Origin: Desulfobacterales bacterium
Lineage (GTDB): Bacteria > Desulfobacterota > Desulfobacteria > Desulfobacterales > UBA5852
Direction: 5' to 3'
NCBI GenBank assembly: GCA_963674755.2
Contig: CAXXVS010000002.1
Span: 32,001-96,000 of the forward strand
DNA: 64,000 nt
Positions 35,118-50,650 of the stretch are shown one piece after another (the first letter of the stretch is position 1; every line of letters begins with the position of its first letter). The translations under genes were made by a program, and so were the position numbers. A model generated the notes under the pieces. The model did not search any database, was not told the DNA's origin, and saw only the letters and a program-made list of their open reading frames with translations.

Positions 35118-35149
35118 AGGTTCGCAGTCACGTAGCGTTCCAAAACACT

Positions 35150-36286
35150 TTACCCACGAACTGCACCTAACTCAATAGACCCTGCAGTCGCCGATATTGA
35201 TCGCAATTCTCGGTATTTCGAAATCAACTGATCGGCCCTATGGTCATAGGAACAATCGGATAGCAGCATCCTCCGCCGTCCGGCTTCAGCAATGGACGCT
35301 CTTTCCTTATCGTGTAATAGGAAATACTGAATTTTGTTAATCATATCATCCTGATCGACGAAAAACGCACATTCCTCGCCATCGGCGAAATAATGCGTTG
35401 CAAGCTCATTTCGCTCGTGCAACATGAAACCGCCAGTCGCTGGAATCTCGAAAGTGCGCGCGGTGATGAGATCCCCCGCTGGCGCCCATGGCGTTCCCTC
35501 GAAAAGCAGACCAAGATTGATTTTCGCTCCCAGAATGGCCTTTGCATATTCCTGTCCCCAGACAGGGGTATCCTGGTAAACAGACCGAACTCGCGGGCGG
35601 GACCTGCTCCAGCCATTGGGACCCCAGATCTTCACGGAAATTTCCGGCAGCGCCTCCAACAAATGAGCAATTTCCCCTTCCTTCTTTCTCGAAATATTTC
35701 CAATGAAAACAACGTCACAACCGTAGCGCGAATGATCCAGTTCCGTCAGCGTGACAGGAACGTGCACCTCTGGATCGTAGGCGTGACTCACAAAGGTAAT
35801 ATTGGTATAAGCATATCGTTCCCGGAGAAAATCCATGTGCGCAGGCTTTGTCGTGAATACCCAATCATAAAGCGTGATCGCTTTGGCAGCTTGCCCATCG
35901 AAGCCCGTATCAGGATAAAAATTGATTGATACCGCTCCGCTTGCGCGCAGCGTCCGCAGTGTCTCTGGCGTAACGCTATCACCCTTAAATGCGAAGAAAA
36001 GGTCCGGTTCAAAGCCGCGCATGGCAGCAATCAGAGCGCGGTTATACTCGGTAATCATAGCGGGCGCCATGAGACGCCGCACGGCTCGCAACCAACGGGT
36101 CTCCCAACGTGGAAGGTGACTTTCCGGCGGCACAACAAGTACTGAATGACCGGCTCGCCTTAACGCACGGATAAAGCTGTAATCGTTCCCACCATGGCGG
36201 ATGTTACAAGCCGCAAGAATCCGTAAGGGTCCTATATTCGAGCACTCTTCGAGTACGTTGGCTTGTGTTGCTTTGCTTAGTTCCAT
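35150..36286 (-). CDS. CgeB-like glycosyltransferase
   Basis: D.VFIG, Y.KAI...KINL, TARTFEIPA.GGF.L.ER, KI.Y.L.....R..IA. Confidence 0.85.
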   Translation of the reverse strand: MELSKATQANVLEECSNIGPLRILAACNIRHGGNDYSFIRALRRAGHSVLVVPPESHLPRWETRWLRAVRRLMAPAMITEYNRALIAAMRGFEPDLFFAFKGDSVTPETLRTLRASGAVSINFYPDTGFDGQAAKAITLYDWVFTTKPAHMDFLRERYAYTNITFVSHAYDPEVHVPVTLTELDHSRYGCDVVFIGNISRKKEGEIAHLLEALPEISVKIWGPNGWSRSRPRVRSVYQDTPVWGQEYAKAILGAKINLGLLFEGTPWAPAGDLITARTFEIPATGGFMLHERNELATHYFADGEECAFFVDQDDMINKIQYFLLHDKERASIAEAGRRRMLLSDCSYDHRADQLISKYRELRSISATAGSIELGAVRG

Positions 36287-36863
36287 CCCACATGATCCAT
36301 GAGTGGCGATGCCTCACGAACGAAAACAAGATCCATTTGCGTCAGTGTTCTGTCGTAAGGCCTCTGGACGTAGCTATCAATGTCGTAGATGCAAAAGCCG
36401 AGACCACCGAGAAATGCGATGACTTCTTGAGCAAGTGGATTTCCTTCATAGATGCGTTGCGTAGAGACCTCCACAAGGATAATCGTAGTAAATTCAAGCG
36501 TGTGTCCTGCCCCCCCCCCCCCCCCCCCCCCCGCGCGCAGGACTTCGCGCTCATGGCCCTGCACGTCCAGCTTGAGAAGCACACACGGCACGTCAGAGAG
36601 CTCCGTAAGCACCTCACGTAGTACATCATCACATGTCCGAACAGGCACCATGACTGGAGAGCCAACAAACGTTGGACTTTTTAGAAAAACGGAAACCGGT
36701 CTTTTTCAGTCTCTCAACACAGAGTGCGGTTTTCAGCCCTTCACTGAGCAGAAGAGATGAAAAACAAGCAATAGTGAGGCATTCCTATATATCCAACTGT
36801 CGTATCCAAGTATGGCTCGAACCCAACCGCGCACGATTTCAGTGATGTTTATCTTCCGAATCA
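36277..36863 (-). pseudogene. Disrupted FkbM-family methyltransferase containing a 23-nt G tract
   Basis: 3' part LLKLDVQGHE.EVL..EVS....YEG.P..QMDLVF; 5' part from RBS+GTG (~36863) stops early and the DVGAN motif region is missing. Confidence 0.65.
36510..36532. repeat. C23 (G23 on coding strand) homopolymer
   Basis: Directly visible run of 23 C. Confidence 0.95.
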
Positions 36864-36894
36864 CTCTATGCTCTTCTCCTTTAGAACACCATAT

Positions 36895-38163
36895 CTACCA
36901 TAGAGAGAACACGCTCATACCTCGCCCACGCTTGGTACAAGTATCAACGCAGACATGACGCCCATCATACGACCACTTTGGATGCAAGTCGGCACGATAA
37001 CCGGTCGCCCGTACCGCGGAATCACTCGCAATTATTACTTCATCCAGAGGCTTGCGCTGCTCGACATCAAACAGGTAGAGGCGACAATTGCCTTCCTCGT
37101 CGGGGTATGTGTCGTTGATGATTGTAGTTGTGCTTCCCGGGCAAAATGTCGGATGTCCGTCCTCCGGCAGGATACTACGGTCTATTCGGTCGCGATCTCC
37201 GGTTTGGTCTGTAAATGACTGAAAACAGTCGCCGGTCACCTTGCGGGAAATCGCACCTCCAGGCGGGAACAATTTATGGTAAAGGGGAAGAAGTGGCTTT
37301 ATAAGGTTTTTGGCAATAGTCTTTTGTCCACGCAGTTTATTGAGCGTGGTACTGGTCCCGCCGTATCCGAACACGGTTCGATCGTCCCGCCAGCAGTAAT
37401 GACTCATACGTCCACTGTCGTTCAGCATGAACAGATTACGACCATCCGTGTCGGCGGTCAGCATGCGCGCATAGATACCCCCATCGACATTTAGCCAGCG
37501 GTGCAGGAAGACGAAACGGGAGTTGGCAGGATTGATCATCATATGCTCGAGATAATGAACTCCCGCATACATCGAGCTGACTCGCCCAATTTTCATCACA
37601 TCGCCGATAGCGATAATGCGCTCGAACGAGCCGTCGGCAAGTGACATCCTCCAGATACCATCCTCGGGATCGAACGGCTTCTTTTTCTCCAGGCGCGGTG
37701 TGCCTTGATAGTTATATCCTGGGCGGTACCAGAATAACCGATCGTAGTCGATCGAGAGCGCGTACTGACCATCACTGGTGATGGTGTAGGCTGGCATGGG
37801 CAGTACGGTTTCAGCGCCTGTCGCAATATCAAGCACAATTGCTCGGTAGTGGCCATCGCGGATGTCATTGTAGAGGACCCGACTACTAAAATCCGGTCCG
37901 AGCCACTGCAGCATCGAACCTTGCTGCCAGTTCCAGGAGCGCGTTTCGGCAATCGGCGTGAAGTCTCGGCCACCTGGAAATTCGAAGTATCCGATCGCGA
38001 TTGCCTCTCCAGCCTCGGGCATGCGGTTGATGAACGGCGTACGTTGCGCAAGTAGACGGTTGTTGTCGGCATTCAGGGGCGATTTGTCGTAGTAGCCAAA
38101 AAAATAATCGCCATCAGGAGGAGTTTCGTAGATCTGGTTTAACGTAATTGGAGTAGCGCTCAT
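36895..38163 (-). CDS. Beta-propeller (TolB/oligogalacturonide-lyase-like) protein of polysaccharide loci
   Basis: YFFGYYDKSP, SWNWQQG.MLQW, SHY.W, DGHP, R.DLHPKW. Confidence 0.7.
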   Translation of the reverse strand: MSATPITLNQIYETPPDGDYFFGYYDKSPLNADNNRLLAQRTPFINRMPEAGEAIAIGYFEFPGGRDFTPIAETRSWNWQQGSMLQWLGPDFSSRVLYNDIRDGHYRAIVLDIATGAETVLPMPAYTITSDGQYALSIDYDRLFWYRPGYNYQGTPRLEKKKPFDPEDGIWRMSLADGSFERIIAIGDVMKIGRVSSMYAGVHYLEHMMINPANSRFVFLHRWLNVDGGIYARMLTADTDGRNLFMLNDSGRMSHYCWRDDRTVFGYGGTSTTLNKLRGQKTIAKNLIKPLLPLYHKLFPPGGAISRKVTGDCFQSFTDQTGDRDRIDRSILPEDGHPTFCPGSTTTIINDTYPDEEGNCRLYLFDVEQRKPLDEVIIASDSAVRATGYRADLHPKWSYDGRHVCVDTCTKRGRGMSVFSLW

Positions 38164-39428
38164 CGCAGTTGTCCGGTTTCTTGTCGACTATCGCGTCCCG
38201 CAGCCCCTTCAACGGCACGGCCATTCAGCGCGAACCTGCAAGCCTCTTCCAATCCTGATGCGTTGGCTGCAAAAGAAAAGCGTGCTACATGCTTGTGCGC
38301 TGCTGTGGCGATACGCTTCCTCAGTTCGGAATCTTTTAGGAGTTTTAAATGCCCGGCAACCGTATCGACGCCTCCAACAGGGACGCGAAAACCGGTTTCT
38401 CCCTCAATAACAAGATCTCGGGATGTCCCGATTATTTCTGACACGATGACAGCGTTTGAAAAATTCATCGCTTCGTTCAATGCTTTTGGCGATGGATCAT
38501 ATTCGGAAAGGAGACAAAAAATGTCTGAAATAGAGTAGTAACGGCTGATCTCGGATTGGTTGACGAATCCGAGATGCACAGTGTGGATTTCATGGGCTTT
38601 TGCGACCGAAAGTAATTCGTCGCGTTGAGGACCGTCCCCCATAATGAGAAATGTAAAGGATTTCGGTCCAGCCCTCCGAATTGCTTCGAGCACATCCCCG
38701 GGCCGTTTTCTGCCAGTCAGACGCCCACAAAAAAGCACAACCAGGTTGTCTTCCGGGATGCCGAGTTCTGCTTTGGTCTGCAATTTTTTTGGGCGGTAGA
38801 TATCGTCCTGGGTGCGGAAAAAATCGTTATCTACAGCACATAGAAAGGGAAAGAGTTGTTCTGCACAAAGACCATGGTGAATCAAGAATTCCTTATTGCC
38901 TGAGCAGGTGTACATTACGGCATCACACCTTCGTAAAAACGCTTTAACCATCGCATCCCGCATGAAGTTACGAACTGCACCCACAAGTTGACCAGGTTTG
39001 AGCGTTACCTCGCCGCGCCAAATGACTTTGATACCAAGGTGGCGCGCCGAAAAAAGCGCAATCCAAAAAGATAAAATCGAGTAACCCTGTATGAGGATCG
39101 CGTCAAATCGCCCACGCTTTAAAGCCGAGAATAGCCCAATGTTGATACGCGATCCGAAACCAGACTTATTGTTGAGGGCGTAGTTCGGTAGAAATTCATA
39201 GGCATGCCCGTCCAGCAACGGTATATCCCACTCGATTTTAGTTCCGAATTCTTTGTCGTAGACACCTTTAAGTCCGAGGGTGTCAAGATACAGCACTTTT
39301 CCGTCAAATGCCGGCAAACTGCAAATGTTACTGTACAACGGAGAGTGATACTGCACAGGGTGCATCGCAAGAATCGCCAAGCGAATGGGGCGAGCATCCT
39401 TTTCGTGCGCTATAGATTCATATGGCAA
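38160..39428 (-). CDS. Glycosyltransferase family 4
   Basis: HPVQY..PL, WDIPLLDG, VDNDFF, F.GRL..RK.P, GFVNQSE, NEAM. Confidence 0.92.
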   Translation of the reverse strand: MPYESIAHEKDARPIRLAILAMHPVQYHSPLYSNICSLPAFDGKVLYLDTLGLKGVYDKEFGTKIEWDIPLLDGHAYEFLPNYALNNKSGFGSRINIGLFSALKRGRFDAILIQGYSILSFWIALFSARHLGIKVIWRGEVTLKPGQLVGAVRNFMRDAMVKAFLRRCDAVMYTCSGNKEFLIHHGLCAEQLFPFLCAVDNDFFRTQDDIYRPKKLQTKAELGIPEDNLVVLFCGRLTGRKRPGDVLEAIRRAGPKSFTFLIMGDGPQRDELLSVAKAHEIHTVHLGFVNQSEISRYYSISDIFCLLSEYDPSPKALNEAMNFSNAVIVSEIIGTSRDLVIEGETGFRVPVGGVDTVAGHLKLLKDSELRKRIATAAHKHVARFSFAANASGLEEACRFALNGRAVEGAAGRDSRQETGQLR

Positions 39429-39547
39429 GAGAGACTTTTCCTATAGAAAAAGAATGCGGCATGATTGAGTTGGAGGCGCTTGCTCTTAACAGGTTCTTCA
39501 AGAAAAACGATTGAAAAACGGCCAGTCTGTCACACACAAGGATTTTC

Positions 39548-41422
39548 CTACCACTCACCGGTTCCTGCATAGTTCCAAACAGAGTAAGCCCACCGCCTCG
39601 CCCATCGGCACTTTGGCTTTGCAAGTTTTTCAATCGTCTTCCAGGCTTGGGAGCGCTCGTCGGATTTCAGCCATTCAGCGATTGGAGTCGAGAAGCCCGT
39701 CTTTGCCCGATTGGTTACAGGTGCTGGCAGGGGTTGCACCGGTGCCGATGCGAGGAGCGATTTCCCCTTATTCTGCGCAAAACCGGAGACAAGTGCGGGG
39801 GATGTCTCTTCGAGAAGTATCTTGTCTACGAGTGGCACCCTGACCTCGAGCGAATGGGCCATGCTCGCCCAATCCGAATCGCGAAGCAACTGGTTCCGCA
39901 TGTAGAGCTCCGCTTCGAGTGCCGCGACTTTGCCGAATGGCGAGCGCGGCCCATCGCTTAATAAATCGGAGATCAGAGCAATCGGTTGTAACTCCCGTAG
40001 GCCGGCGGCAACGAACTCGGGCTCTAAAATAGCGTCGAGTTCGTCCGGCATGAAGACCCCTCTACGTACAAGATAAGCACCGGGATAGGTGCCGCCGTAG
40101 GTAAGTAGAGCGGCGATCTTCGGGTCGATGGCCTCGCCACTCAGCCGCTGCGCTCCCATGATCAGAGGCGCCAGCCAGGAGGTTCCGTCGTGGCGTATAC
40201 CCATTCGACCTAGAATGCTGACCGATCGTGGGACGTCGCGAAACGCTGGATAGCCGCCGAACAGTTCATCGCCACCCAGTCCGGAAATCGCCACCTTGAG
40301 TCCGAGTTCGTGTGCGGCCTTGCTGACGAACCAGGTGTTAAGGCCGTCGATGGTCGGCTGATCCATCGCGTCGAGTATTTTTGACAAATCTTCAAGGAAT
40401 TCTTTCCGAGAAACGCCTCTGCTCGTGTGACTGGCACCGTAACGACGGGCGATTTCCGCTGCCAGTGGTGCCTCGTCGTCATGTCTACCCTGAAATTCCT
40501 CGAAGTAGAGCGTTACGGTGTTGATTTCATGATCAGTCGCATCGCGCATCAAGCCAAGCAGGGCGCCAGAATCGATCCCCGCCGATAGAAACAGCCCCAC
40601 GGGGACGTCGGCCACCAGGTGATGGCGGACGCTGTCGGCGAGGCTGCGGCGGACCGTCTCGGTTACAAGCTCATCGTCCGGCTTTTCCCCTTTAGAAGCT
40701 GCTTCATTCGACCGAATTTCGGCCTGGGCAATTAAGTGACTGATCGAGCAATAGGGCATAATGCGCGGGTTGTCATTTGCCTCGACGATCATTGTTGTTC
40801 CTGCGGGCAATGCACGGATGGCGCGGCACCAGGTGAATGGCTCTGGTACCGAGCCGAACAAATAGAAACCGACGACGCCCGCCGGATCCACATCCTTCGC
40901 GATTTCTCCTCCGGCCAACAGCGACTTGACTTGGGATGCGAAGGTGATGCCTTTCGCGCTGTCGACGTAGTAGAGTGGCTTGATGCCGTAAGGATCGCGC
41001 GCGAGCATTAAGCGGCGTTTTTGGCGCTCGAATATCGCGAAGGCGAACATGCCTCGCAATCGCTCGACCATTGCGGGTCCATAAGCGTCGTAGAGATGCA
41101 ACAGGACTTCCGTGTCTGAGGTTGTTCTGAAGACATACCCACGCGCAATAAGGCCATCTCGGAGGATTTGGTAGTTATAGATTTCTCCATTGAATGTGAC
41201 GACCAGTCGCCCATCCGGCGTTTGCATCGGCTGTGATGCGCGCTCGGAAACATCGATGATCGAAAGCCGCCGATGCACAAAGCCGACGGACGCTTCCGTC
41301 TCTTCGATCCAAAGTCCATCACCGTCGGGCCCACGGCGGGACATGTGTTGCGAAATTGCCGCGAGTTCGATTTCGTTGACGCGTCCGCCCGCGTATCGGA
41401 ATTGACCACCGATCCCGCACAT
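39548..41422 (-). CDS. asnB: Glutamine-hydrolyzing asparagine-synthase-like amidotransferase, probably polysaccharide amidation
   Basis: MCGI (catalytic Cys2), RGPD, HRRLSIID, FNGEIYN, FLSAGIDS, SGLGGDELFGGY, SMAHSLEVRVP. Confidence 0.93.
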   Translation of the reverse strand: MCGIGGQFRYAGGRVNEIELAAISQHMSRRGPDGDGLWIEETEASVGFVHRRLSIIDVSERASQPMQTPDGRLVVTFNGEIYNYQILRDGLIARGYVFRTTSDTEVLLHLYDAYGPAMVERLRGMFAFAIFERQKRRLMLARDPYGIKPLYYVDSAKGITFASQVKSLLAGGEIAKDVDPAGVVGFYLFGSVPEPFTWCRAIRALPAGTTMIVEANDNPRIMPYCSISHLIAQAEIRSNEAASKGEKPDDELVTETVRRSLADSVRHHLVADVPVGLFLSAGIDSGALLGLMRDATDHEINTVTLYFEEFQGRHDDEAPLAAEIARRYGASHTSRGVSRKEFLEDLSKILDAMDQPTIDGLNTWFVSKAAHELGLKVAISGLGGDELFGGYPAFRDVPRSVSILGRMGIRHDGTSWLAPLIMGAQRLSGEAIDPKIAALLTYGGTYPGAYLVRRGVFMPDELDAILEPEFVAAGLRELQPIALISDLLSDGPRSPFGKVAALEAELYMRNQLLRDSDWASMAHSLEVRVPLVDKILLEETSPALVSGFAQNKGKSLLASAPVQPLPAPVTNRAKTGFSTPIAEWLKSDERSQAWKTIEKLAKPKCRWARRWAYSVWNYAGTGEW

Positions 41423-42510
41423 CAGCCAAGCACCTCAATCAATCGATTCTTGAATGCGCTGTACCGGAATTCCGCTTGCCAGCGTTCCTGGCCAGCGCGG
41501 CCCATATTGCTTGAGCGATCCGGGTTTCCCAGCAGGTCGATCAAGCGCTCTTCCAAAGCGTCTTTGCTGTTGAGGTCGATGTTGTAACCAGTGACTCCAT
41601 CAAGATTAACCTCTTGTCCGGCGTCGTGAACCGATGCAATAACGGGTATTCCATGACGCATTGCTTCGATATACACCAGCCCAAAACCTTCACCACGCGA
41701 GGGCATTGCAAAAACGTGTGCCTGTGACCATACTTGCGCTAACTCGGCCTCGCTCAAAAAGCCTTTGACATCGATATTCGTTGAGGCACTCGAATTTGCC
41801 GCATGCGTGATGATTGAGTCTTTCCCTGTTCCACTGCCGACAATGACGAGTCGGGCGTCTGGAACAGCAGAAACGATTTTTGGCCAGACCTCGATGATTT
41901 CGCGATGTCCCTTATACAGGTTACCGTCATCCATGCGCGCAACGATCAACGCGGTTGGTGGTCCGCTAAACGTTGCGGGCATTGAGGATGGTTTGTCCTC
42001 CTCGGTCCCCAACTGGCAGACTCGAGCCTGTTGTAGCGTACCATGCTTTTCTTCGAACCTGGCAAGCGTGTAGCTCGAGTTTGACAACACAAGGCCGGCG
42101 CGCCGTAGTACGTTTTTACGCTCCGTAGAAAGATCGCCCCAAACCTCAATTCCATGTATCCACACAACGTATGACCGTTTAAAACCCGGCAATCGCGGAT
42201 GGGCGCGTGCTGTGCCCAGAAAGTCGTAGATAAAACCGCCATGGGTTATTGCCGCCGCATGGCAATGTGCCAAAAAACGTACTTTACTTCCGTATGCCCT
42301 ACTCGCGACTCTACCAGCTACTTCAACCGGCGCCTCGTCGGATAAGGACAGAAGTGAAACATCCACCCCTGTCTCGATTAGCGCGCGCGCTGTGTTTCTC
42401 GCCACGCGGGCGATGCCACCCAGACCGGGGGTAAACAGTGCCGCAGCAACATGGATTTTCTGCGTGAGTGGTACGAATGCAGGGACGCTATTCACATTTT
42501 CACATTCCAT
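41422..42510 (-). CDS. Glycosyltransferase family 4
   Basis: GGI.R, HG.EVW, SNS.YT, YKGH, MPSRGEGFGLVYIEAM. Confidence 0.92.
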   Translation of the reverse strand: MECENVNSVPAFVPLTQKIHVAAALFTPGLGGIARVARNTARALIETGVDVSLLSLSDEAPVEVAGRVASRAYGSKVRFLAHCHAAAITHGGFIYDFLGTARAHPRLPGFKRSYVVWIHGIEVWGDLSTERKNVLRRAGLVLSNSSYTLARFEEKHGTLQQARVCQLGTEEDKPSSMPATFSGPPTALIVARMDDGNLYKGHREIIEVWPKIVSAVPDARLVIVGSGTGKDSIITHAANSSASTNIDVKGFLSEAELAQVWSQAHVFAMPSRGEGFGLVYIEAMRHGIPVIASVHDAGQEVNLDGVTGYNIDLNSKDALEERLIDLLGNPDRSSNMGRAGQERWQAEFRYSAFKNRLIEVLG

Positions 42511-43369
42511 CTATCCATTCAGTTATTTCATGTTGCACTTCCGGCAGCAGGGAATAGTTTCTTGGATAGCAGAGACTGTATGCCGGCAGGTGTTGCGTCA
42601 TATCTGCCATGCTGTCGAACAGGGCTATATTTTTTTTCTGATCCGTTACATCGAGTTGGAATGATTGTTTTATCAGGTTCATCAAGGCGGTTTGTTTGCT
42701 GATCGGCGAAATGTTTATTTGGCTGTTGTTCTTGCAAGCATCTCGATCTTCAAGAATGAAGACAGCCTTTAGCGGAAGCACCGTATTGATGGTCTCGCTG
42801 CCGGAGGTGAGCCGTTTTTTGGATGAATAGTATGCCATCGGCGCTAGTGCGGGGGCGGTTGCAAAAAGCGCTTCCAAGGAATCCGGCCAAAGCCTTGGGC
42901 CTGCGTCGAATGGCGTCAGCGTCACATGCCGGTTTTCCAGGTTGAGCTGGATGCAGTCGTCGGCCAGCAAGGGCGTTCCCTGCTGATGAAAGGCAGCGGC
43001 CAGGGTCGATTTGCCGTAGCCTGTCTCACCGATGAAGGCCACGGCTTGATCATCGATGGACACGGCGCTGGCGTGGACCATGATATGGCCCTGGTGGCTC
43101 AAGATCCGCGGCAGGACCTGGTCCCCAAAATAGTGGTCGATGGTGTCCTGGGTCGCATCGGACGCCGGATGGCACACAATATCCAGGCCGTTTTCTGAAA
43201 CGAGAAAGTCGGTCTGGTCCGGGAACCTCAGGAGATAGCCGAAGGCGGAGCGGGCCAGGGAGAGGGTGATTTCGCCATCGGGCAATTTCCAGTGGTGGAT
43301 CCAGCGATGGTTCCCATCGCCGGATAATCTTGTATTTTTAATGTTGAATTTTAAATTGGGGGGAATCAA
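42500..43369 (-). CDS. HPr-kinase-like lasso peptide kinase (PadeK/PsmK-type); 5' end uncertain
   Basis: VHASAV, FIGETGYGKSTLAAAF, LADD, PRLWPDS; adjacent to lasso precursors. Confidence 0.85.
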   Translation of the reverse strand: MIPPNLKFNIKNTRLSGDGNHRWIHHWKLPDGEITLSLARSAFGYLLRFPDQTDFLVSENGLDIVCHPASDATQDTIDHYFGDQVLPRILSHQGHIMVHASAVSIDDQAVAFIGETGYGKSTLAAAFHQQGTPLLADDCIQLNLENRHVTLTPFDAGPRLWPDSLEALFATAPALAPMAYYSSKKRLTSGSETINTVLPLKAVFILEDRDACKNNSQINISPISKQTALMNLIKQSFQLDVTDQKKNIALFDSMADMTQHLPAYSLCYPRNYSLLPEVQHEITEWIDGM

Positions 43370-43552
43370 TAGAAGCTATATTTGAATACAGTATGTTGAA
43401 TTCTGAATTGCCGGAAAAAACCCTTAATAAGTTTGAGTTATGGGTATATAAATTCATACTTTATGAAGCGGTGTTAGTGGTATTAATTTACTGCGTTCCC
43501 CCGAGTGGTGATGCTATCGCGGTCAGCGAACTTTTTTGGGATACGACAACGA

Positions 43553-43717
43553 TCAGGAACGTCTACCCGGATCATCCCGATGCCACCAACCTTCACGCCA
43601 TCCCCTTGATCCAGCGGCGGTCAATTCGCGGATGTTGCCATACTCTCTTAGAGATGGGCTTTGGTACGTTTTCTTAAGTTCCTCGTTTGACAATATTTTT
43701 CCTTCGGCGATTTTCAT
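43553..43717 (-). CDS. Lasso peptide precursor A2 (54 aa; not in ORF track)
   Basis: MKIAEGKILSNEELKKTYQSPSLREYGNIRELTA|AGSRGWREGWWHRDDPGRRS*; YxxPxL and G...LT(-2) leader motifs, Glu8 acceptor, C-terminal Ser; alternative ATG at 43729. Confidence 0.9.
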   Translation of the reverse strand: MKIAEGKILSNEELKKTYQSPSLREYGNIRELTAAGSRGWREGWWHRDDPGRRS

Positions 43718-43803
43718 TTTTAAACCCATCTTTTATTGTTGGATACGGGGTTATGAGTTTTGAACGTGGAGTGATGTGTTTGAGATTGCCAGCAAGTTTT
43801 AGC

Positions 43804-43959
43804 TCAGGGGTACCGATGCCTTTGCTGTGGCCAGTTTTCTGGTTTTCGGCCTGAGCCGCCGGCGGTCAGGTCGCAGATGCGACCGTATTCCCTTAGCTCC
43901 GGCGGTCGGTAGTTCTTTTTAGGGCGGGTTTTCTTATTGGCGGTTATGTTGTCGGTCAT
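43804..43959 (-). CDS. Lasso peptide precursor A1 (51 aa; not in ORF track)
   Basis: MTDNITANKKTRPKKNYRPPELREYGRICDLTA|GGSGRKPENWPQQRHRYP*; YxxPxL and G...LT(-2) leader motifs, Gly1/Glu8. Confidence 0.9.
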   Translation of the reverse strand: MTDNITANKKTRPKKNYRPPELREYGRICDLTAGGSGRKPENWPQQRHRYP

Positions 43960-44112
43960 ATGCACAAATCGTTCTGAGGCTGCGGACGTCGCGTTATTAT
44001 CTTCCGTTATGATGGCGAATGATTACTAATTATCTTTTTGCCATTCGTAGTACCTAAGCAGGCGTTGTGTCAAATGATTACTTTTTCGGGCATCGGGCAT
44101 CAAATGCGTCAT

Positions 44113-46032
44113 TCAGCCCTCATAATTGTGGTCCTTCCATGCGATAAGCGCTGCGGCTTCCCACACGTATTGTCGATCGTTGTCCGAGGCGGCGCCGTTT
44201 TGGAAATTTTGGTTGGCCTGGCGGATTTTGGGTTCATCCACGTAGTCGCTGACTTCGGAAAGATCTTGCGTGATGGTCCGGTTCAGGTGGGTCTTGTGGC
44301 TGTTCATCAGGGCGGTGATGAATTGCCAACCCAAATGGTTTTTGTCGGTGCGAAAACAGACGTCCCGCGGCAGGTAGCGGGACATGGATCGGCGCAGGAG
44401 GTATTTCGACCACCCCCGGCGGTCTTTCTGGTCCAGGGGCAGGGAGAGGTAAAATTCCACCAAACGCCGGTCGGTGTATGGGCAGCGAGGTTCGATGCCG
44501 AACCGGGCCGCGACGCGGTCGTAGCGTTCCAGGCCCACGGTCAAGTAAGGATGGAGCAACTTTTGCGCGTGGGCCTGGATCGGGTCTTTGACCAGGCCGA
44601 TGGGGTGATGGCGCCGCAGCTGGTGGAGGCGGTCTTCGAGGCCGATCCGTTGGGCGAACTCCGGACGGATGGCCGACTCTTTCATGGCCTCACAGTAGTC
44701 GTTGCCGGCCGGCCAAAAACGGCGTTTGACCTTGCGCAGGCGGTCCGTGACAAATGCGGCCCGGGCATTGGCGTGGAGCAGGTGCCAGGGGGAATCATAC
44801 GCCCCGGCCGTGGTGTCTTTCCGGAAGGCGTCGGCCAGCACCGCGAGCCAGCGGCCCTGCCTGAGAAGGTAGGCCAAGTAGTCGGTGCCGTAAGAGCAAA
44901 GGTTGTCCCCGGCCACGCCGTCAAGCAGGGTTTTGCAGCCCTGCGCCCGGGCGGCACCGTACAGGGCGCCCGGCAGGACCATGAAGATGTCGAAAGGATT
45001 GTCCGTCGGCGCCACGGCCTGTCCGAGGTCCTCGAAAAAGGGGCCGGGTTGATTTACGGCAACCAGGTGCGATGTCTGGGTGCCGCTGTCGATGACGCGC
45101 CGGATGAAATGGGTCTCCGGGCAGGTGATGCGATCCGGCGTCACGGCGGAAAAGGTTTGCAGGCGCGTCCGGCCGGTCTGGTTTAGGATGTTGCGGCCAA
45201 TGGCCACCACCGCCGAGGAATCCATGCCGCCACTGAGCATGGAGGCCGGAGGGGTGGGGCTGCGCAGGCGGCAGCGAACGGCCTGGGTGAAAATTTCCAG
45301 AAAGGCTTCGGTGTATTGGGCGTCGGACGGCAAGAACGTTTTTTTAGTGACGTCGGGTTCCCAATAAGTCTGGGTGCGCAGGCCGTTGCGGTCCACGGTG
45401 ATCCAGCAGGCCGGCGGCAGACGATGGATGTTGGCGGAAAAGGTGCTCGTTTTGTCGATGCCCTCCAACTCGGAGACCAGAAAATCGGCGATGCGCCCTT
45501 CGTTGATCCGCAAGGGTACGGCGGGCAGGGCCCGCAAGGCGTTTTCTTCCGAGGCCAGGGCAAAGAGCCTGTTGGGCTGGTGGTGGTAATAAATCGGTTT
45601 GACCCCCAGGGCGTCCCGGGCGGCAAAGAGGCGCTGTTGGGTGCCGTCCCAGATGACAAAGGCGAAATCACCGATGAGTCTCAAGGGGGCGGCCGTGCCC
45701 CAGCACCGGTAGGCCTCGATGATCAGTTCGCCATCGCCCATGGGGGCCGCAGCGCCGGCGGCCAGGCCGAGGTTGCGAATCAATTCGTCGCGGTTGTCGA
45801 TGCGGGCATCGGCGATGATGGTCATCGGGGATAGCGAGTGGGTCAGGGGCATGTGTTCGGTGAGGGATTCCGGGGTCGTAAAAAGGGCGCCCCAGGCCAG
45901 GCCCACGGGCCCGCTGATCCAGGCGGCGCTGCCGTCCGGTCCTCGATGCGCCTGCATGTCGAGCATGAGCTGGAGATCGGCGGTCGATGCGGGCTTGTCG
46001 TTCAGGTGATATATGCCGGCGATGGCTGCCAT
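44113..46032 (-). CDS. Lasso peptide cyclase (C protein, asparagine-synthase-like)
   Basis: MAAIAG (no catalytic Cys2), HRGPDG, DARIDNR.EL, LIGDFAF, LSGGMDSS, E.R.PY.DRRLVEF; adjacent to B1/B2. Confidence 0.92.
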   Translation of the reverse strand: MAAIAGIYHLNDKPASTADLQLMLDMQAHRGPDGSAAWISGPVGLAWGALFTTPESLTEHMPLTHSLSPMTIIADARIDNRDELIRNLGLAAGAAAPMGDGELIIEAYRCWGTAAPLRLIGDFAFVIWDGTQQRLFAARDALGVKPIYYHHQPNRLFALASEENALRALPAVPLRINEGRIADFLVSELEGIDKTSTFSANIHRLPPACWITVDRNGLRTQTYWEPDVTKKTFLPSDAQYTEAFLEIFTQAVRCRLRSPTPPASMLSGGMDSSAVVAIGRNILNQTGRTRLQTFSAVTPDRITCPETHFIRRVIDSGTQTSHLVAVNQPGPFFEDLGQAVAPTDNPFDIFMVLPGALYGAARAQGCKTLLDGVAGDNLCSYGTDYLAYLLRQGRWLAVLADAFRKDTTAGAYDSPWHLLHANARAAFVTDRLRKVKRRFWPAGNDYCEAMKESAIRPEFAQRIGLEDRLHQLRRHHPIGLVKDPIQAHAQKLLHPYLTVGLERYDRVAARFGIEPRCPYTDRRLVEFYLSLPLDQKDRRGWSKYLLRRSMSRYLPRDVCFRTDKNHLGWQFITALMNSHKTHLNRTITQDLSEVSDYVDEPKIRQANQNFQNGAASDNDRQYVWEAAALIAWKDHNYEG

Positions 46033-46473
46033 AGTGTCCATCCAGAAAGGGCATCTTTTAGCCCCTGGCGGCGTTCTCGCCTCCTGTCGGTCCTCGGCGT
46101 AGCCAAGCTACGCCTGTGGGCACCCACCGTTGAAGAATCAATCAGATGGGAAGTCCCGCTCAGCGGGACGCCAGTCGGCTGCGGCCTTGCCAGGAACCAA
46201 AATCTACCCTTTCTGGACGGACACTTTTGCTTATCCAAAAAAAGCATCTTTTAGCCCCTGGCGGCGTTCTCGCTTCCTGTCGGTCCTCGGCGTAGCCAAG
46301 CTACGCCTGTGGGCACCCACCGTTGAAGAATCAATCAGATGGGAAGTCCCGCTCAGCGGGACGCCTGTCGGCTGCGGTTTGTTGAACACCGATGTTTTTG
46401 AAGATCAGACGTGAAATCCCGCGCTGTGCTGCGGGACCGGGAACCAAAACCTACCATCTCCGGACGGACACTA
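46032..46473. mobile_element. Two tandem MITE-like elements (AGTGTCCATCCAGAAA/TTTCTGGACGGACACT ends)
   Basis: 134-bp near-identical direct repeat 46051-46184 vs 46244-46377 (2 mismatches by eye); terminal inverted repeats; TA at outer ends. Confidence 0.8.
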
Positions 46474-46955
46474 TTCAAAAGCAAAGCGAATTTTATCCGG
46501 ACGTCCGGGTTCTCATGCAAGGGTTGGCCCTGGTATTCGACCCAGGCGTGGGCTTGAATGGTGCGGCTGTTTTTTTGGACCCCGATGCAAATGTCGCTGT
46601 CGATGCACTGACGGCGCAGCAGGCTCCAGAGGGTCAGGGAACGGGGCAGGCAGTTGGCGCGGCCGAGCCGGGTTTGAGCGGCCCGGTGGACCATTTGGGC
46701 TGCGGTCTGGGCGATATTGTCCGCGTTGGCTTGTCTTCCCCAAGGTGCTGTCTGTCGGCCGGTGACCCACGTTAGCAGATGGTGGAGCCTTTGGTAGCCC
46801 AGGGTTTTCAAACCGATCCTTACCAGGGGAAGGCTTACAAGAGCCTGGAGGAAGAACCGTTTTTCCTGGCAGGAAAGGGATTGGAATAATGACGGCCCTC
46901 TAAAAAGTCCGACCCGCCGCGATAAAGGCGGATGAATATCTGCGTTACGCTTCAT
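46353..46955 (-). CDS. Lasso peptide leader peptidase B2 (transglutaminase-like)
   Basis: ANCLPRSL (Cys), IGV, AHAWVE (His); both termini run into repeat elements. Confidence 0.92.
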   Translation of the reverse strand: MKRNADIHPPLSRRVGLFRGPSLFQSLSCQEKRFFLQALVSLPLVRIGLKTLGYQRLHHLLTWVTGRQTAPWGRQANADNIAQTAAQMVHRAAQTRLGRANCLPRSLTLWSLLRRQCIDSDICIGVQKNSRTIQAHAWVEYQGQPLHENPDVRIKFALLLNSVRPEMVGFGSRSRSTARDFTSDLQKHRCSTNRSRQASR

Positions 46956-47040
46956 TTCTCGCCACTGCGGCCTACGCGAAGTGCGCCTCTTTCCTCAAGA
47001 TTCGCAAGTCTTGTGGTCTCAAACGTCATACGAAACCGTC
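46891..47040. mobile_element. 150-bp MITE-like element (GACGG...CCGTC ends) at the B1/B2 junction
   Basis: GACGGCCCTCTAAAAAGTCC ... CATACGAAACCGTC; internal CTGCGGCCTAC..GTGCGCCT like element 396-518. Confidence 0.7.
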
Positions 47041-47065
47041 TGGATTTCGACTGGTCAGGAAGCCA

Positions 47066-47332
47066 TCAGGATGACCTGGCCTGTATGAGGCCTTTTTCCA
47101 GCAGCTTTGCGATGAGCTGCTCCAGGTCTGATTTCAGGGTGTCGGGGTCCACGTCGTATTGTTCAAGCAGCGATGCGAAGGCCGCTTCGACGGTCTGGCC
47201 GGAGGTGAGGGCATTGATCATGCGGGTGCCGACTTCGTCCAGACCGAAGTACATTTCCGAATCGAGATTGAGAAGGACCGCTTCCCCGTCCAACTCCCTG
47301 ATTTTTACGTAGTCCGGAAGATCGTATTTCAT
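47066..47332 (-). CDS. Lasso peptide B1 / PqqD-family RiPP recognition element
   Basis: 88 aa: MKYDLPDYVKIRELDGEAVLLNLDSEMYFGLDEVG...QYDVDP..LKSDL..L...L.EKGLI. Confidence 0.93.
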   Translation of the reverse strand: MKYDLPDYVKIRELDGEAVLLNLDSEMYFGLDEVGTRMINALTSGQTVEAAFASLLEQYDVDPDTLKSDLEQLIAKLLEKGLIQARSS

Positions 47333-47358
47333 GTCAGAGATCAATTGGTTTTTCGCTT

Positions 47359-48573
47359 CTAAGAAGTTTCCCAGGATGAAGGGGTGAAAGTCGTTTGCTT
47401 TGCATCCCTTCGTTGTTCGATCCAGTGGCGGAATTCCTTGGCCTGATCCGCCCAGCGATGGATATAGCAGGGTACCAGCGAACGATGAGCGGCGATGTTG
47501 TAACGGATGCGCATGTAGGCCGGGGGCGGCACGGCGGTCTGCAGGATCATGCGCAACGAATCGCTGAGGGAAAGGTTCGTCATGCTGCGGCGGGCGTTTT
47601 CCCATCGCGCCCCCTTATGATTCAGGCGGGTGATCAGGGTGAGGTCTTCATCGGCTGGGCGGCGATCGTGCAAGGCCTGGAAAACCGCATCCGGTAGGGC
47701 CGAGTCCAACTCGGGGGTGTCAAAGGACTGCTTGACCCGCCGCAGGGTGCGTTCTGCGGCATAGGTCCAACCGAAAGCCACGGCCTGGGTGACAAGCAGG
47801 TCCCAGTCGATGGCCTCCCGGGTAATGGATAGATACACGTCCATGGTGTGCAGGTGGGTGATTTCCGGCTCGCCATGCTGGAGTTGGGCATGGGCCATGA
47901 GGTAGAGCAAATGGGCTTCCGGTTTCAGCGTGAGGAAGCGGCCGGCCTCGATGTCGATTTCGCGGGTTTGATGATGGAACCAGGTCATTTTGGGTTCGGT
48001 CATCCAGGTATGGGGGGCGCTGAGCAGCCAGTAGTGGAGCTCCAGTGCCACGGCCCGGCCCATGCCGCCTTCGAGGACAAAGTGATGGCTGTTGTCGATG
48101 CCCTTGGCGTTCGTCTGGCTCCACAGGTGGCCGGGATCGTCTATTTTTTGAAAACCGCTGCATTCCAGGGTATGCAATGCTGGCTGCCGAAGATGGTAGG
48201 GAATCAGCACGTCGAGGTCGGCCATGGGGCGCGTCCAGGGTCTGGGGTAGACGGTGTTGGCCAGGATGCTGCCCTTGAGCCACAGGGCCGGGATGTGGGC
48301 GTCGCGGAGTGCTATATTGACCTGCTTCAGGGTGTCTTCATACATTTCATACAGGGCGGCGGTTTGCAGGGCAGCGTTTTTTACCGGCTGCCACTGTTCG
48401 CTGTCCAGTTCGACGGCCGGGACGGAGGCGTTAGCCTGTTTGATGACCCAGTAAAGCATGGGGGCCAGATCGTGGGCCAGGGCGACCTTAATGATCGGTG
48501 GCCAGTGGCCGGCCGGAATAGATGGCGGGTCGACTTGTTGGGTCAGCAGGGCGGTTAGGGTTTTTAAAACCAT
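47359..48573 (-). CDS. Nucleotidyltransferase family protein (type found in paeninodin/pseudomycoidin-like clusters)
   Basis: LKG..LA..VYP.P..RPMADLDVLI, LELHY.L. Confidence 0.85.
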   Translation of the reverse strand: MVLKTLTALLTQQVDPPSIPAGHWPPIIKVALAHDLAPMLYWVIKQANASVPAVELDSEQWQPVKNAALQTAALYEMYEDTLKQVNIALRDAHIPALWLKGSILANTVYPRPWTRPMADLDVLIPYHLRQPALHTLECSGFQKIDDPGHLWSQTNAKGIDNSHHFVLEGGMGRAVALELHYWLLSAPHTWMTEPKMTWFHHQTREIDIEAGRFLTLKPEAHLLYLMAHAQLQHGEPEITHLHTMDVYLSITREAIDWDLLVTQAVAFGWTYAAERTLRRVKQSFDTPELDSALPDAVFQALHDRRPADEDLTLITRLNHKGARWENARRSMTNLSLSDSLRMILQTAVPPPAYMRIRYNIAAHRSLVPCYIHRWADQAKEFRHWIEQRRDAKQTTFTPSSWETS

Positions 48574-48611
48574 GTTGGGGGGACTATGAATCCGTTCTTC
48601 TCAATTTTAGA

Positions 48612-48792
48612 TAGTGCCTATCCATAAATGAAATGCATTTTTTGGCCCCTGCCGGTGTTCTCTGGGGCTGCGCCTGTGGGCGCCCGTCGGCTGAGGTTTG
48701 TTGAACACGGATGTGACCAAAAATCAGACGTGAAATCCCGCGTTCCGCGGTGGGACCGGAAGCCAGAATCTATCATCGCTGGATCGGCACTA
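48612..48792. mobile_element. Third, internally deleted copy of the TAGTG...CACTA MITE-like element
   Basis: TAGTGCCTATCCA ... TGGATCGGCACTA; shares GTTTGTTGAACAC..ATCAGACGTGAAATCCCGCG..GGGACCGG with 46377-46440. Confidence 0.75.
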
Positions 48793-50650
48793 TATAGTTG
48801 GCTGGGTTTGTCGATGCTGTTGATTCTTGGTTGTATTGGGCTCGCCAGGACCAGGCGTAGCGGCCATCGAGGGATATCAATTGTTCGTGGGTGCCGGACT
48901 CGGTTATGCGGCCGGCGCCCATGACGTGGATGATGTCGGCGTGCATGGCGGTGGTGAAGCTGTGTGTGATCACCAGGGCGGTTCGCCCCCGGGTAAGGGT
49001 GCGGAATCGGGCCAGCCAGTCAGCCTGGGCCCAGGAATCCATGAAACTGGTCGGCTCGTCCAGGACGATGATGGGCGATCGGCGCAGGAAGGCCCGGGCC
49101 AGGGCTATCCGCCGCCATTCGCCGGCGCTCAGGTCGGTGCCGCCGTCGAACCATTTCCCCAAACGCGTGTTGCCGCCGTCAGGCAGGCGTTGAACGATCT
49201 CTTCCGCGCCTGCGGCGGCAATCGCGTCGTTGAGGTCGTGCGGGCCGGGGACCGTCTGCACGCTGCCCATGGCGACGTTTTCAACTAAAGAAGCGTTGAA
49301 GCGAATAGGCTCTTGGAAGAGGACGCTTATCTGGCGCCGCAGGTCGGCGATAGCGAATTCCCGGATGTCGATGTCGTTGATGCGAATGGTCCCGGACTGG
49401 GGATCGTAGAACCGGCAGAGCAGTTTGAGCAAGGTGGTTTTGCCGGCGCCGTTGGGCCCCACGATGGCGGCTGTCTGGCCGGCGTGGATATGCAGATCCA
49501 GCTCTTCCAGTGCCGGGCGGTCGGTGCCGGGGTATCGAAAGCTTATATGGTCGAAACGAATGGCGTAGCGCTGTCGGTGGGGCATCGGTGCCGGTCGGGC
49601 AGGGTCCTTCATTCCAGGTGTCATATCCAGAAATTCGAAGAGGTTCCCCAGGAACAGGCTGTTGGAATAGAGTTCCCCCACATTGGCAAGCAGGGTCCGC
49701 ATGAGGCGCTGGCCCTGGCTGAAGGCCTGGTAGATAAGGGCCAAGTCGCCGAGGGTGTGTCGGCCGCGGGCGGTTTGCCATACCATCCAGATCATGGCCA
49801 GGCCGGTGATCAGCATAGCGGCCAGGGCGGCGCCGAATTCGGCCAGGCTGCGCCGTTTGATTAATTGGGTGAGCCGGTTGCGCAAGGTGCGGCGTACGTT
49901 CTGATAAAGGGATTTGAAACGGTCACCCAGGTCGAACAGGCGCAGTTCGGCGGCGGTTTCCCGGTCGGTGAGCAGCCAGTCATAGTACCAGCCCCGACGG
50001 CGATGGGCGGTGGATTCCAGCTGCCATTGGTGCATGAGCAGGCGGTGGTGAAGGACCACGTAAAGGGCCGGCAGGGTGCTGATAATGAGTGCGATGGGCA
50101 GCAGCCAGCCGTAGGAAAGCAGCACCCCGGCCATGGCTATGGCCGTAATGGCGGTTTGCAGCAGGCTGCCGAGGTTTTCCAGCAGGGCCACAGGGCGGTG
50201 GCCGGCGTCGTTGCGGGCCCGGTGCAGATGGTCGAAAAAATCAGGGGATTCGTAAAACGCCATGTCCACAGCCATCGATTGTTCGTGGACCAGACCGGCG
50301 ATGTAATCTTTGACCCGCTCGCCTTGAACGGTCCGCACCCAGTTGGTAAAGCCGCGCAGCAATTCGCCGAACAGCATGAGCCCGGCCATGAGCGCCACCC
50401 AGATCAGTACCGGTGTCGCCGCGGCGATGCTGACATCATTGCCGATCAGGTCGACCAGGCCGTTGACCAGAGCCCGGGTCAAGTAGACCGTGGCAACAGG
50501 CAAAAGGCCCTGGAGGACGAGCAACGTGATCCAGCCCAGCGTCCATTTCCCCGTTGCGGCACGGACCAGGGCGAAGGTGCGGGGGAGGAAGCGGAGTTGG
50601 TTGCGGAAGCGGCTCAGCCTGTCTTTTATTATGGGCAGGAGAGGGGGCAA
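48773..50650 (-). CDS. ABC exporter, fused permease/ATPase (lasso D-type)
   Basis: N-terminal TM domain; GPNGAGKTT, LSAGEW, LDEPT. Confidence 0.92.
   Translation of the reverse strand: MPPLLPIIKDRLSRFRNQLRFLPRTFALVRAATGKWTLGWITLLVLQGLLPVATVYLTRALVNGLVDLIGNDVSIAAATPVLIWVALMAGLMLFGELLRGFTNWVRTVQGERVKDYIAGLVHEQSMAVDMAFYESPDFFDHLHRARNDAGHRPVALLENLGSLLQTAITAIAMAGVLLSYGWLLPIALIISTLPALYVVLHHRLLMHQWQLESTAHRRRGWYYDWLLTDRETAAELRLFDLGDRFKSLYQNVRRTLRNRLTQLIKRRSLAEFGAALAAMLITGLAMIWMVWQTARGRHTLGDLALIYQAFSQGQRLMRTLLANVGELYSNSLFLGNLFEFLDMTPGMKDPARPAPMPHRQRYAIRFDHISFRYPGTDRPALEELDLHIHAGQTAAIVGPNGAGKTTLLKLLCRFYDPQSGTIRINDIDIREFAIADLRRQISVLFQEPIRFNASLVENVAMGSVQTVPGPHDLNDAIAAAGAEEIVQRLPDGGNTRLGKWFDGGTDLSAGEWRRIALARAFLRRSPIIVLDEPTSFMDSWAQADWLARFRTLTRGRTALVITHSFTTAMHADIIHVMGAGRITESGTHEQLISLDGRYAWSWRAQYNQESTASTNPANYIVPIQR

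What the first reader, a model, noticed from the sequence alone, without database searches (positions are those of the whole stretch)
42500..50650. Complete, apparently tailored lasso-peptide gene cluster in a probable deltaproteobacterium
Seen: one strand carries ABC exporter, nucleotidyltransferase, B1 (PqqD), B2 (Cys/His peptidase), AsnB-like cyclase lacking Cys2, two precursors and an HPr-kinase-like gene. Established: split B1/B2 + C + kinase + nucleotidyltransferase is the paeninodin/pseudomycoidin architecture characterised in Bacillota. There the kinase phosphorylates the C-terminal Ser, and the nucleotidyltransferase is linked to glycosylation in pseudomycoidin. No isopeptidase or TonB receptor, common in alphaproteobacterial lasso clusters, is present in the window. 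Inference: an uncharacterised modified lasso system; I cannot confirm novelty without a search.
Basis: partly seen in the sequence, partly recalled or inferred. Interest (0 to 1): 0.92.

Follow-up and report, generated by a model that had tools for sequence, protein, structure and literature searches.

The report
Ring-phosphorylated lasso peptide gene cluster
A sulfate-reducing bacterium carries, inside its surface-polysaccharide genes, a complete gene set for two knotted (lasso) peptides that are probably phosphorylated on a ring serine; the gene set is real, but it is a further example of a kind already described.

Summary
The cluster is real and complete. One strand carries an ABC exporter, an NTP_transf_5 protein, B1, B2, a lasso cyclase (above the NCBIfam cut-off, Ala in place of Cys2), two precursors (Thr-2, Glu8) and an HPrK-like kinase. 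It is not a new architecture. The bsf cluster of Bradymonas sediminis (class Deltaproteobacteria in that paper) has the same seven gene types (PMC10368454), and 15 of 59 cyclase-related loci carry the full enzyme set. A1 ends in Pro and its only Ser/Thr is Ser3. Four precursors that share source and contig length with close kinase relatives all have Ser3 and Glu8, and none ends in Ser. The kinase branches apart from Bacillota C-terminal-Ser kinases. The best model is BsfK-like Ser3 phosphorylation, then an N-dependent step, probably sugar addition. The cassette lies in the variable part of an EPS locus, and its kinase overlaps a GT4 gene. Similar co-location is published for Bacilli (PMC13381572). 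Genome-wide repeats supply both ends of B2, so decay is possible. Verdict: new member of a known kind.

The parts
48773..50650 (-). MsbA-like ABC exporter (D)
   Evidence: Pfam ABC_tran and ABC_membrane; no Pfam peptidase domain was reported
48607..48795 (.). Copy of a genome-wide repeat with terminal inverted repeats (MITE-like) between D and N
   Evidence: 46 merged loci in the genome; folds into a long hairpin; 78% identical to the copy at 46359-46474
47359..48573 (-). NTP_transf_5 nucleotidyltransferase-fold protein (N; PsmN/BsfN/LppN-like)
   Evidence: PF14907 116.5 bits; D119 and D121 invariant in 110 homologues; model pLDDT 93 matches MenT1 (Z 16.2) and ANT(2'')-Ia (Z 14.1); only copy in the genome
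47066..47332 (-). B1, RiPP recognition element (PqqD family)
   Evidence: PF05402 61.9 bits
46900..47042 (.). Copy of a second repeat family between B1 and B2; it holds the only ATG/GTG/TTG upstream of B2's conserved N-terminal helix (ATG at 46955)
   Evidence: 8 merged loci in the genome; in-frame starts at codons 1, 49 and 88; left boundary judged by eye from copies
46353..46955 (-). B2 leader peptidase; residues about 158-200 are read through a repeat element
   Evidence: NF033537 90.2 bits, cut-off 33; the tail matches many genome positions by tblastn; alignment with homologues
46030..46478 (.). Tandem MITE-like repeat copies between B2 and C (145-nt direct repeat, 97% identical; 42-nt inverted arms)
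   Evidence: 153 merged loci in the genome for 46030-46230
44113..46032 (-). Lasso cyclase (C); Ala at position 2 instead of the glutaminase Cys
   Evidence: NF033535 581.5, cut-off 525; N-terminus compared with the neighbouring AsnB
43804..43959 (-). Precursor A1, 51 aa; core 43807-43860 GGSGRKPENWPQQRHRYP; predicted Gly1-Glu8 ring; Ser3 is its only Ser/Thr; ends in Pro
   Evidence: cyclised mass 2131.057 Da, +phosphate 2211.024
43553..43729 (-). Precursor A2, 58 aa; core 43556-43615 AGSRGWREGWWHRDDPGRRS; predicted Ala1-Glu8 ring; Ser3 and C-terminal Ser20
   Evidence: (lasso leader models, below or near cut-off); cyclised mass 2405.139 Da, +phosphate 2485.105
42500..43369 (-). HPrK-like peptide kinase (K); its end overlaps the start of the GT4 gene by 11 nt
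   Evidence: H99, G114, G117, G119, K120, S121, D137, D138 invariant, with the same spacing as BsfK H148-G163-G166-G168-K169-S170-D186-D187; overlap from coordinates
41422..42510 (-). GT4 glycosyltransferase, first of the EPS genes downstream; candidate accessory, not shown to act on the peptide
   Evidence: PF00534
39548..41422 (-). True glutamine amidotransferase (AsnB family, Cys2 kept) of the EPS locus
   Evidence: TIGR01536 375.3, cut-off 267.1
7296..42510 (.). Wzy-type exopolysaccharide locus hosting the cassette (export protein, Wzc, CpsB, O-antigen ligase-like, WecA-like, GT2/GT4, carbamoyl-, methyl- and sulfotransferases, flippase); galE lies on the other side at 52036-53067

Best explanation
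A class II lasso-peptide cassette of the kinase + nucleotidyltransferase kind, working like the Bradymonas bsf system. Proposed steps: (1) B1 binds the YxxPxL leader of A1 and A2 (motifs shown; binding inferred from the family). (2) K, helped by B1, phosphorylates Ser3 of the linear precursor, possibly more than once (inferred from BsfK and LppK and from conservation of Ser3). (3) B2 cuts after Thr-2/Ala-1 (inferred). (4) C joins the new N-terminus to Glu8, giving 8-residue rings with 10- and 12-residue tails (family membership shown; threading untested). (5) N, a DxD nucleotidyltransferase-fold enzyme, acts on the phosphate, most likely giving a sugar-phosphate adduct as seen with PsmN (weakest step). 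(6) D exports the product. The cassette travels with the variable part of an exopolysaccharide locus, so its likely role is at the cell surface or in biofilm matrix rather than as a classical antibiotic (inference).
For: Gene identities. Ser3 is the only Ser/Thr in the A1 core, and both cores have it. Precursors P0242, P0243, P0244 and P0245 share source and contig length with kinases P0004, P0005, P0002 and P0007, which are 69-73% and 95% identical to K. All 4 of 4 have Ser3 and Glu8 and end in T, A, M and P; the top hit P0241 also has Ser3 and Glu8 and ends in P. Cores found without using core sequence, next to cyclase or kinase homologues: Glu8 cores have Ser/Thr3 in 9 of 13 and C-terminal Ser in 0 of 13; Asp9 cores 4 of 39 and 13 of 39. 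In a FastTree tree of 72 kinases, K and its six close relatives (support 99) sit apart from the Bacillota clade (99), whose nine Bacillales rows all go with cores ending in Ser. BsfK phosphorylates Ser3 (PMC10368454); LppK also does (PMC13381572). PsmN needs a DxD pair and is required for +162 Da adducts on the phosphorylated peptide (PMC6993621); N has invariant D119 and D121. EPS genes lie in 29 of 59 cyclase loci and 14 of 21 K+N loci, against 20 of 300 control windows of this genome.
Against: No product, transcript or activity was observed. BsfK itself could not be fetched, so orthology of K to BsfK is untested; the paper's authors never detected a mature bsf lasso and had no evidence on BsfN. 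Several kinases of about 180-206 bits against K go with cores lacking Ser/Thr3 (L035, L037, L039, L043, L044), so kinase kinship at about 40% identity does not fix the site. A2 does end in Ser. The link between relatives' precursors and kinases rests on equal source and contig length, not on seen DNA. Deleting lppN changed nothing in a heterologous host. Repeat elements lie at three junctions and supply both ends of B2. The EPS control is one genome and the loci include close kin.
Confidence: 0.7

Rival explanations
1. Paeninodin/pseudomycoidin mode: K phosphorylates the C-terminal Ser, so only A2 is modified and N adds hexose there as a tail lock; or A2 is phosphorylated at both Ser3 and Ser20.
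For: A2 ends in Ser; its closest leader relative P0242 ends in Thr; the gene set equals psm.
Against: A1 ends in Pro. None of the 5 closest related precursors ends in Ser. Glu8-type cores end in Ser in 0 of 13. K is outside the Bacillota kinase clade.
Confidence: 0.15
2. The cassette is silent or decaying in this strain: MITE-like elements have broken the B1-B2 coupling and replaced B2's natural start and stop, so little or no lasso peptide is made.
For: Repeats at the D/N, B1/B2 and B2/C junctions. B2's only early start codon lies in a repeat and about 43 C-terminal residues come from another. In homologous loci B1 and B2 often abut or overlap. Not found in the 16 other genomes of the family searched.
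Against: All eight frames are open with catalytic residues intact. The repeats are ordinary in this genome's intergenic DNA (153, 46 and 8 loci). Contigs of another run cover C and B2-N at about 99% identity (records 7 and 8). Pseudomycoidin forms without B1 and B2.
Confidence: 0.15
3. K and N serve the polysaccharide pathway (a kinase plus nucleotidyltransferase activating a small substituent for the neighbouring transferases), and the lasso peptides stay unmodified.
For: K overlaps the GT4 gene and is about 180 nt away from A2. N's closest solved folds are small-molecule and tRNA nucleotidyltransferases, with FKRP lower down (Z 7.9).
Against: K homologues occur in 57 of 59 cyclase loci, usually right after the precursor, whether or not EPS genes are near. 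All characterised homologues read here act on precursor peptides. Ser3 is conserved in cores linked to K's close relatives.
Confidence: 0.08

Closest known systems
bsf lasso cluster of Bradymonas sediminis FA350 (Duan et al. 2023, PMC10368454)
   Same: Same seven gene types (A, B1, B2, C, D, K, N); Gram-negative host placed in Deltaproteobacteria by the authors; YxxPxL leader at -17 to -12; 8-residue ring; Ser3 in the ring; same spacing of the kinase motif; no requirement for a C-terminal Ser.
   Different: Here Thr-2 (bsf has Ile-2), Glu8 (bsf Asp8), two precursors with basic and Trp-rich cores, and an EPS locus as host (bsf is flanked by an FG-GAP gene and ribosomal genes). Sequence identity to Bsf proteins was not measured.
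Pseudomycoidin (psm) cluster of Bacillus pseudomycoides (Zyubko et al. 2019, PMC6993621)
   Same: A, B1, B2, C, D, K, N; N with a catalytic DxD and a fold like ANT(2'').
   Different: psm is phosphorylated and hexosylated on a C-terminal Ser; here only one of two cores ends in Ser and K lies in another clade.
Paeninodin-type clusters (PadeK, ThcoK, SyanK; read through the review PMC9266682)
   Same: Split B, cyclase, HPrK-like kinase acting on the precursor, exporter; SyanK shows the kind already in Proteobacteria.
   Different: C-terminal Ser site; the pade cluster has no N.
LPP and paeninodin-like clusters in capsular polysaccharide loci of Bacilli (Popov et al. 2026, PMC13381572)
   Same: RRE + HprK-like kinase + NTP transferase + MsbA-like exporter embedded in polysaccharide loci; Ser3 phosphorylation (LppK); the authors already suggest that neighbouring polysaccharide genes may modify the peptide and that the role may be in biofilms.
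   Different: LPP is linear and uses a SipW-like peptidase; this cluster has B2 and a cyclase, and is in a sulfate-reducing Gram-negative host.

Membership tests
Lasso peptide BGC (class II) | Precursor with YxxPxL leader motif and Thr at -2 | tested here: met
   Tyr at -17 and Thr-2 in both precursors
Lasso peptide BGC (class II) | Asp or Glu at core position 7-9, small N-terminal residue, no Cys | tested here: met
   Gly1 and Ala1, Glu8 in both, no Cys
Lasso peptide BGC (class II) | RRE (B1) and Cys/His peptidase (B2) | tested here: met
   PF05402 and NF033537 above cut-off; Cys102 and His136 align with homologues
Lasso peptide BGC (class II) | AsnB-like macrolactam cyclase, not a glutamine amidotransferase | tested here: met
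   NF033535 581.5 > 525; TIGR01536 235.6 < 267.1; Ala2 in place of Cys2
Lasso peptide BGC (class II) | Threaded topology of the product | not testable with these tools
   Needs the product; bulky tail residues (Trp, Arg, His, Tyr) are present as possible plugs
bsf-type (ring Ser3-phosphorylated) lasso clusters | Gene set A, B1, B2, C, D, K, N | tested here: met
   against the description in PMC10368454
bsf-type (ring Ser3-phosphorylated) lasso clusters | Conserved Ser/Thr at core position 3 | tested here: met
   2 of 2 here, 5 of 5 closest relatives, 9 of 13 Glu8 cores found independently of core sequence
bsf-type (ring Ser3-phosphorylated) lasso clusters | Kinase motif H-G-G-G-K-S-D-D with BsfK spacing | tested here: met
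   the paper says this motif is shared with other lasso kinases, so it does not single out the bsf type
bsf-type (ring Ser3-phosphorylated) lasso clusters | Ile or Val at leader position -2 (Bradymonadales trait) | tested here: not met
   Thr-2 in both precursors; so this is not a member of the Bradymonadales Ile-2 group in the narrow sense, though it likely works the same way
bsf-type (ring Ser3-phosphorylated) lasso clusters | Kinase orthologous to BsfK | not tested
Paeninodin/pseudomycoidin type | Conserved C-terminal Ser as phosphoacceptor | tested here: not met
   1 of 2 here; 0 of 5 closest relatives; 0 of 13 Glu8 cores
Paeninodin/pseudomycoidin type | Kinase in the Bacillota PadeK-like clade | tested here: not met
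   FastTree places K outside the 99-supported Bacillota clade; PadeK and PsmK themselves were not in the tree; no clade test was run
Paeninodin/pseudomycoidin type | PsmN-like NTP transferase with DxD | tested here: met
   PF14907; D119 and D121 invariant; ANT(2'')-like fold
LPP (linear phosphorylated peptides of Bacillota) | SipW-like signal peptidase in place of B2, no cyclase | tested here: not met
   The eight cluster ORFs were scanned; B2 and a cyclase are present and none matched a signal peptidase model

The most novel reading that the evidence does not exclude
The lasso peptides are not free antibiotics but carriers or caps of the cell's exopolysaccharide. K makes phospho-Ser3, N links a first sugar to that phosphate, and the GT4 genes translationally coupled behind K extend it or join it to the Wzy-type polymer, giving a knotted peptide-glycan conjugate. 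The cluster would then stand for a large, uncharacterised cross-phylum family (core xG[S/T]xxxxE, often ending in basic residues plus Pro) whose tails vary fast between strains and act as surface tags.
Probability: 0.15. Interest if true: 0.8.

Novelty: new member of a known kind. Interest (0 to 1): 0.3.

Why it matters
The architecture is known, so the cluster by itself is not a surprise. It has practical value as a test system for two questions that the papers read here leave open: what PsmN/BsfN/LppN enzymes do, and why kinase + NTP-transferase RiPP cassettes sit in polysaccharide loci. Here the kinase overlaps a GT4 gene, which names a concrete partner to test. The cluster also offers a Thr-2/Glu8 example of probable ring phosphorylation, and two precursors that differ in having a C-terminal Ser give a built-in control for site choice. 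The searches run listed no characterised lasso peptide from a sulfate-reducing Desulfobacterota; most subscription journals are not in that library.

Tried and rejected
Word-indexed search with the two-precursor alignment found nothing; the full HMMER search did. The metagenome scan with the kinase alignment returned one 1.3-kb locus with a 38% match, so no DNA around close relatives was seen. No RNA holder was listed; this says nothing about expression. Runs with a small share of words (X6-X9) were not used to name a habitat. Promoter and terminator scans were at chance level (6 vs 5.3 and 13 vs 12.2). Rfam gave no match in 41000-53000. A sequence search of PDB with N gave nothing significant; with C it gave AsnB-family enzymes only. 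LicD/FKRP-like phosphoglycosyl transfer by N was considered: FKRP scores only Z 7.9, below MenT1, ANT(2'') and LnuA, so the fold does not decide the chemistry. The maximum-likelihood kinase tree did not finish; a FastTree tree of 72 rows replaced it, leaving out the 27 rows with no core found within 3 kb or duplicated. The counts (Ser/Thr3 in 113 of 142, Glu8 in 118 of 142, C-terminal Pro 71, C-terminal Ser 15; 7 long hits left out of 149) are biased by the query and were used only to show that the family is large. The paeninodin (PMC4919450) and RODEO (PMC5391289) papers were not held, so paeninodin facts come from a review and from citing papers. A true amidotransferase role for C was rejected.


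Full report
Observation. C passes the curated lasso cyclase model NF033535 (581.5 bits, cut-off 525) and misses the asparagine synthase cut-off. It begins MAAIAG, whereas the true amidotransferase 3 kb downstream begins MCGIGG. B2 passes NF033537, and its Cys102 and His136 align with homologues. Both precursors have Tyr-17, Pro-14, Leu-12 and Thr-2. The cores are GGSGRKPENWPQQRHRYP and AGSRGWREGWWHRDDPGRRS, each with Glu8. The genome holds single copies of N, B1, C and K, no lasso isopeptidase above cut-off, and dsrA above cut-off, which fits a sulfate-reducing deltaproteobacterium.

Surroundings. The cassette lies inside a Wzy-type exopolysaccharide locus. Export protein, Wzc, CpsB, ligase-like, WecA-like, flippase, GT2/GT4, carbamoyl-, methyl- and sulfotransferase genes lie on one side and galE on the other. 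K overlaps the first GT4 gene by 11 nt, and that gene overlaps the amidotransferase by 1 nt. In congener G004, DNA similarity (85-95%) covers the conserved EPS genes up to window 23560 and resumes at 50807. The G004 sequence beyond the 50807 breakpoint has no lasso genes over the roughly 15 kb to its contig end, and congener G005 has a compact galE-to-wecA locus without them. The cyclase was not found in the 16 other genomes of the family, nor B2 above cut-off; several of these genomes are incomplete. So the cassette belongs to the exchangeable middle of the EPS locus.

Repeats. Three junctions carry genome-wide repeat elements with inverted ends: D/N (46 loci in the genome), B1/B2 (8 loci) and B2/C (153 loci). 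B2 reads about 43 residues into one repeat, and its only start codon before the conserved N-terminal helix lies in another. The catalytic domain is whole, but lowered expression cannot be excluded.

How common is the architecture? A scan with C kept the best 80 of 292 related loci. Of the 59 loci of at least 15 kb, 57 carry a K homologue, 21 carry K and N, and 15 carry D, N, B1, B2, C and K at 20 bits or more. They come from cyanobacteria, Chloroflexota, Acidobacteriota, Bacillota and others. Within this genome's class, 18 of 400 other genomes matched the kinase profile. Of 20 regions fetched from 16 of them, three (L111, L113, L119) show all six enzyme genes and L117 all but B2. EPS genes lie in 29 of the 59 loci and 14 of the 21 K+N loci, against 20 of 300 windows of this genome outside the locus. 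The control is one genome and the loci include kin, so this is an enrichment, not a statistic.

Which residue is phosphorylated? A1 ends in Pro and has no Ser or Thr other than Ser3; A2 has Ser3 and Ser20. A profile of the two precursors found 149 proteins among 1.84 billion, 142 of them short precursors, most of the form xG[S/T]xxxxE. That count is biased by the query. Two checks are not. First, four of the five best precursor hits share source and contig length with close kinase relatives: P0242 with P0004, P0243 with P0005, P0244 with P0002, P0245 with P0007. All four have Ser3 and Glu8 and end in Thr, Ala, Met and Pro. Second, among 90 distinct cores found beside cyclase or kinase homologues, Glu8 cores have Ser/Thr3 in 9 of 13 and terminal Ser in 0 of 13, while Asp9 cores have 4 of 39 and 13 of 39 (about two of the 90 look like false hits). 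In the kinase tree, K and its close relatives form a clade (99) inside a 20-row group (95), away from the Bacillota clade (99) whose cores end in Ser. Against a simple rule, several kinases in the same 20-row group go with cores that have Gln or Gly at position 3 and Ser/Thr at 2, 4 or 5.

The N protein. An AlphaFold model from 110 sequences (pLDDT 93) has a nucleotidyltransferase core at about residues 70-290, closest to MenT1 (Z 16.2, rmsd 3.3, 180 aligned), ANT(2'')-Ia (14.1) and LnuA (12.2); FKRP scores 7.9. D119 and D121 are invariant, like the PsmN D134/D136 pair needed for hexose adducts. The fold shows a metal-dependent transferase but not its substrate. N's closest named relatives are from Chloroflexota at 33-41% identity.

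What is known. PMC10368454 (abstract, introduction, results, discussion and part 2 of the PDF supplement read, plus search passages; its FASTA supplements were not held) describes bsf from Bradymonas sediminis, which the authors place in Deltaproteobacteria, with A, B1, B2, C, D, K and N. BsfK phosphorylates Ser3 with help from B1; the mature lasso was never detected and BsfN is untested. PMC6993621 (passages) describes pseudomycoidin, with C-terminal phosphate and PsmN-dependent hexose. PMC9266682 (passages) reviews PadeK, ThcoK and the proteobacterial SyanK. PMC13381572 (passages and section 7) reports paeninodin-like and LPP clusters embedded in capsular polysaccharide loci of Bacilli, Ser3 phosphorylation by LppK, no effect of deleting lppN in a foreign host, and the suggestions that flanking polysaccharide genes modify the peptides and that the role is in biofilms. 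PMC13622209 (passages) shows an RRE-linked nucleotidyltransferase acting as a ligase in another pathway. Each element of this finding therefore has a published precedent: the gene set, a deltaproteobacterial host, ring phosphorylation and the EPS setting.

Mechanism and verdict. Most likely, K with B1 phosphorylates Ser3 on the linear precursors, B2 removes the leader, C closes the 1-to-Glu8 ring, N modifies the phosphate (probably with a sugar) and D exports the product (confidence 0.7; gene identities shown, all chemistry inferred). Rivals are C-terminal phosphorylation of A2 (0.15), a decaying cassette (0.15), and K and N serving the polysaccharide only (0.08). The cluster works like bsf but is not a member of the Ile-2 Bradymonadales group, and it fails the C-terminal-Ser test of the paeninodin type. 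It is a new member of a known kind. The boldest reading left open is a lasso peptide-glycan conjugate built with the GT4 genes coupled to K (probability 0.15). Interest 0.3.

Noticed in passing
window 43553-43615 (A2 core); one search runs X3 and X4: A 946-nt contig of run X3 matches window 43603-44069 over only its first 467 letters, stopping after about the fourth core residue of A2; an X4 contig starts matching at 43608 with 26 letters left over. The precursor P0245, linked to a kinase 95% identical to K, has a different core. The second core may be variable between strains; the unmatched letters were not shown.
   Followed up: partly
window 46030-46478, 46900-47042, 48607-48795, 50712-50767: Several abundant intergenic repeat families with terminal inverted repeats (up to 153 loci in the genome), no Rfam match; also present in congeners, and one copy lies next to the synteny break in G004 (L133 3496-3642). 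They look like MITEs and supply the ends of B2.
   Followed up: partly
L031, L032, L045, L053: Methanobacterium (archaeal) contigs carry B1, B2, cyclase, kinase and ABC homologues, with lasso-like precursors found in L045 and L053.
   Followed up: no
L065, L066, L073: Paenibacillus loci with two cyclase-precursor-kinase units in tandem.
   Followed up: no
P0284 and P0360: Long proteins with four to five repeated lasso-type leader motifs, each followed by a short acidic Ser/Asp-rich segment; P0284 ends in a further domain. Possibly multi-core precursors of another RiPP kind.
   Followed up: no
window 36277-36651: A short FkbM-methyltransferase fragment (model positions 97-171 only) with a G-rich low-complexity stretch; may be a broken gene in the EPS locus.
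   Followed up: no
window 36895-38163 and 31003-32622: Two EPS-locus ORFs (422 aa and 539 aa) without Pfam matches; the second looks like a multi-pass membrane protein, possibly the Wzy polymerase.
   Followed up: no
L037, L039, L044, L036, L117 and several of P0241-P0389: Many related cores have Met-rich tails, some ending in Cys-Leu; a distinct sub-family beside kinases close to K.
   Followed up: no
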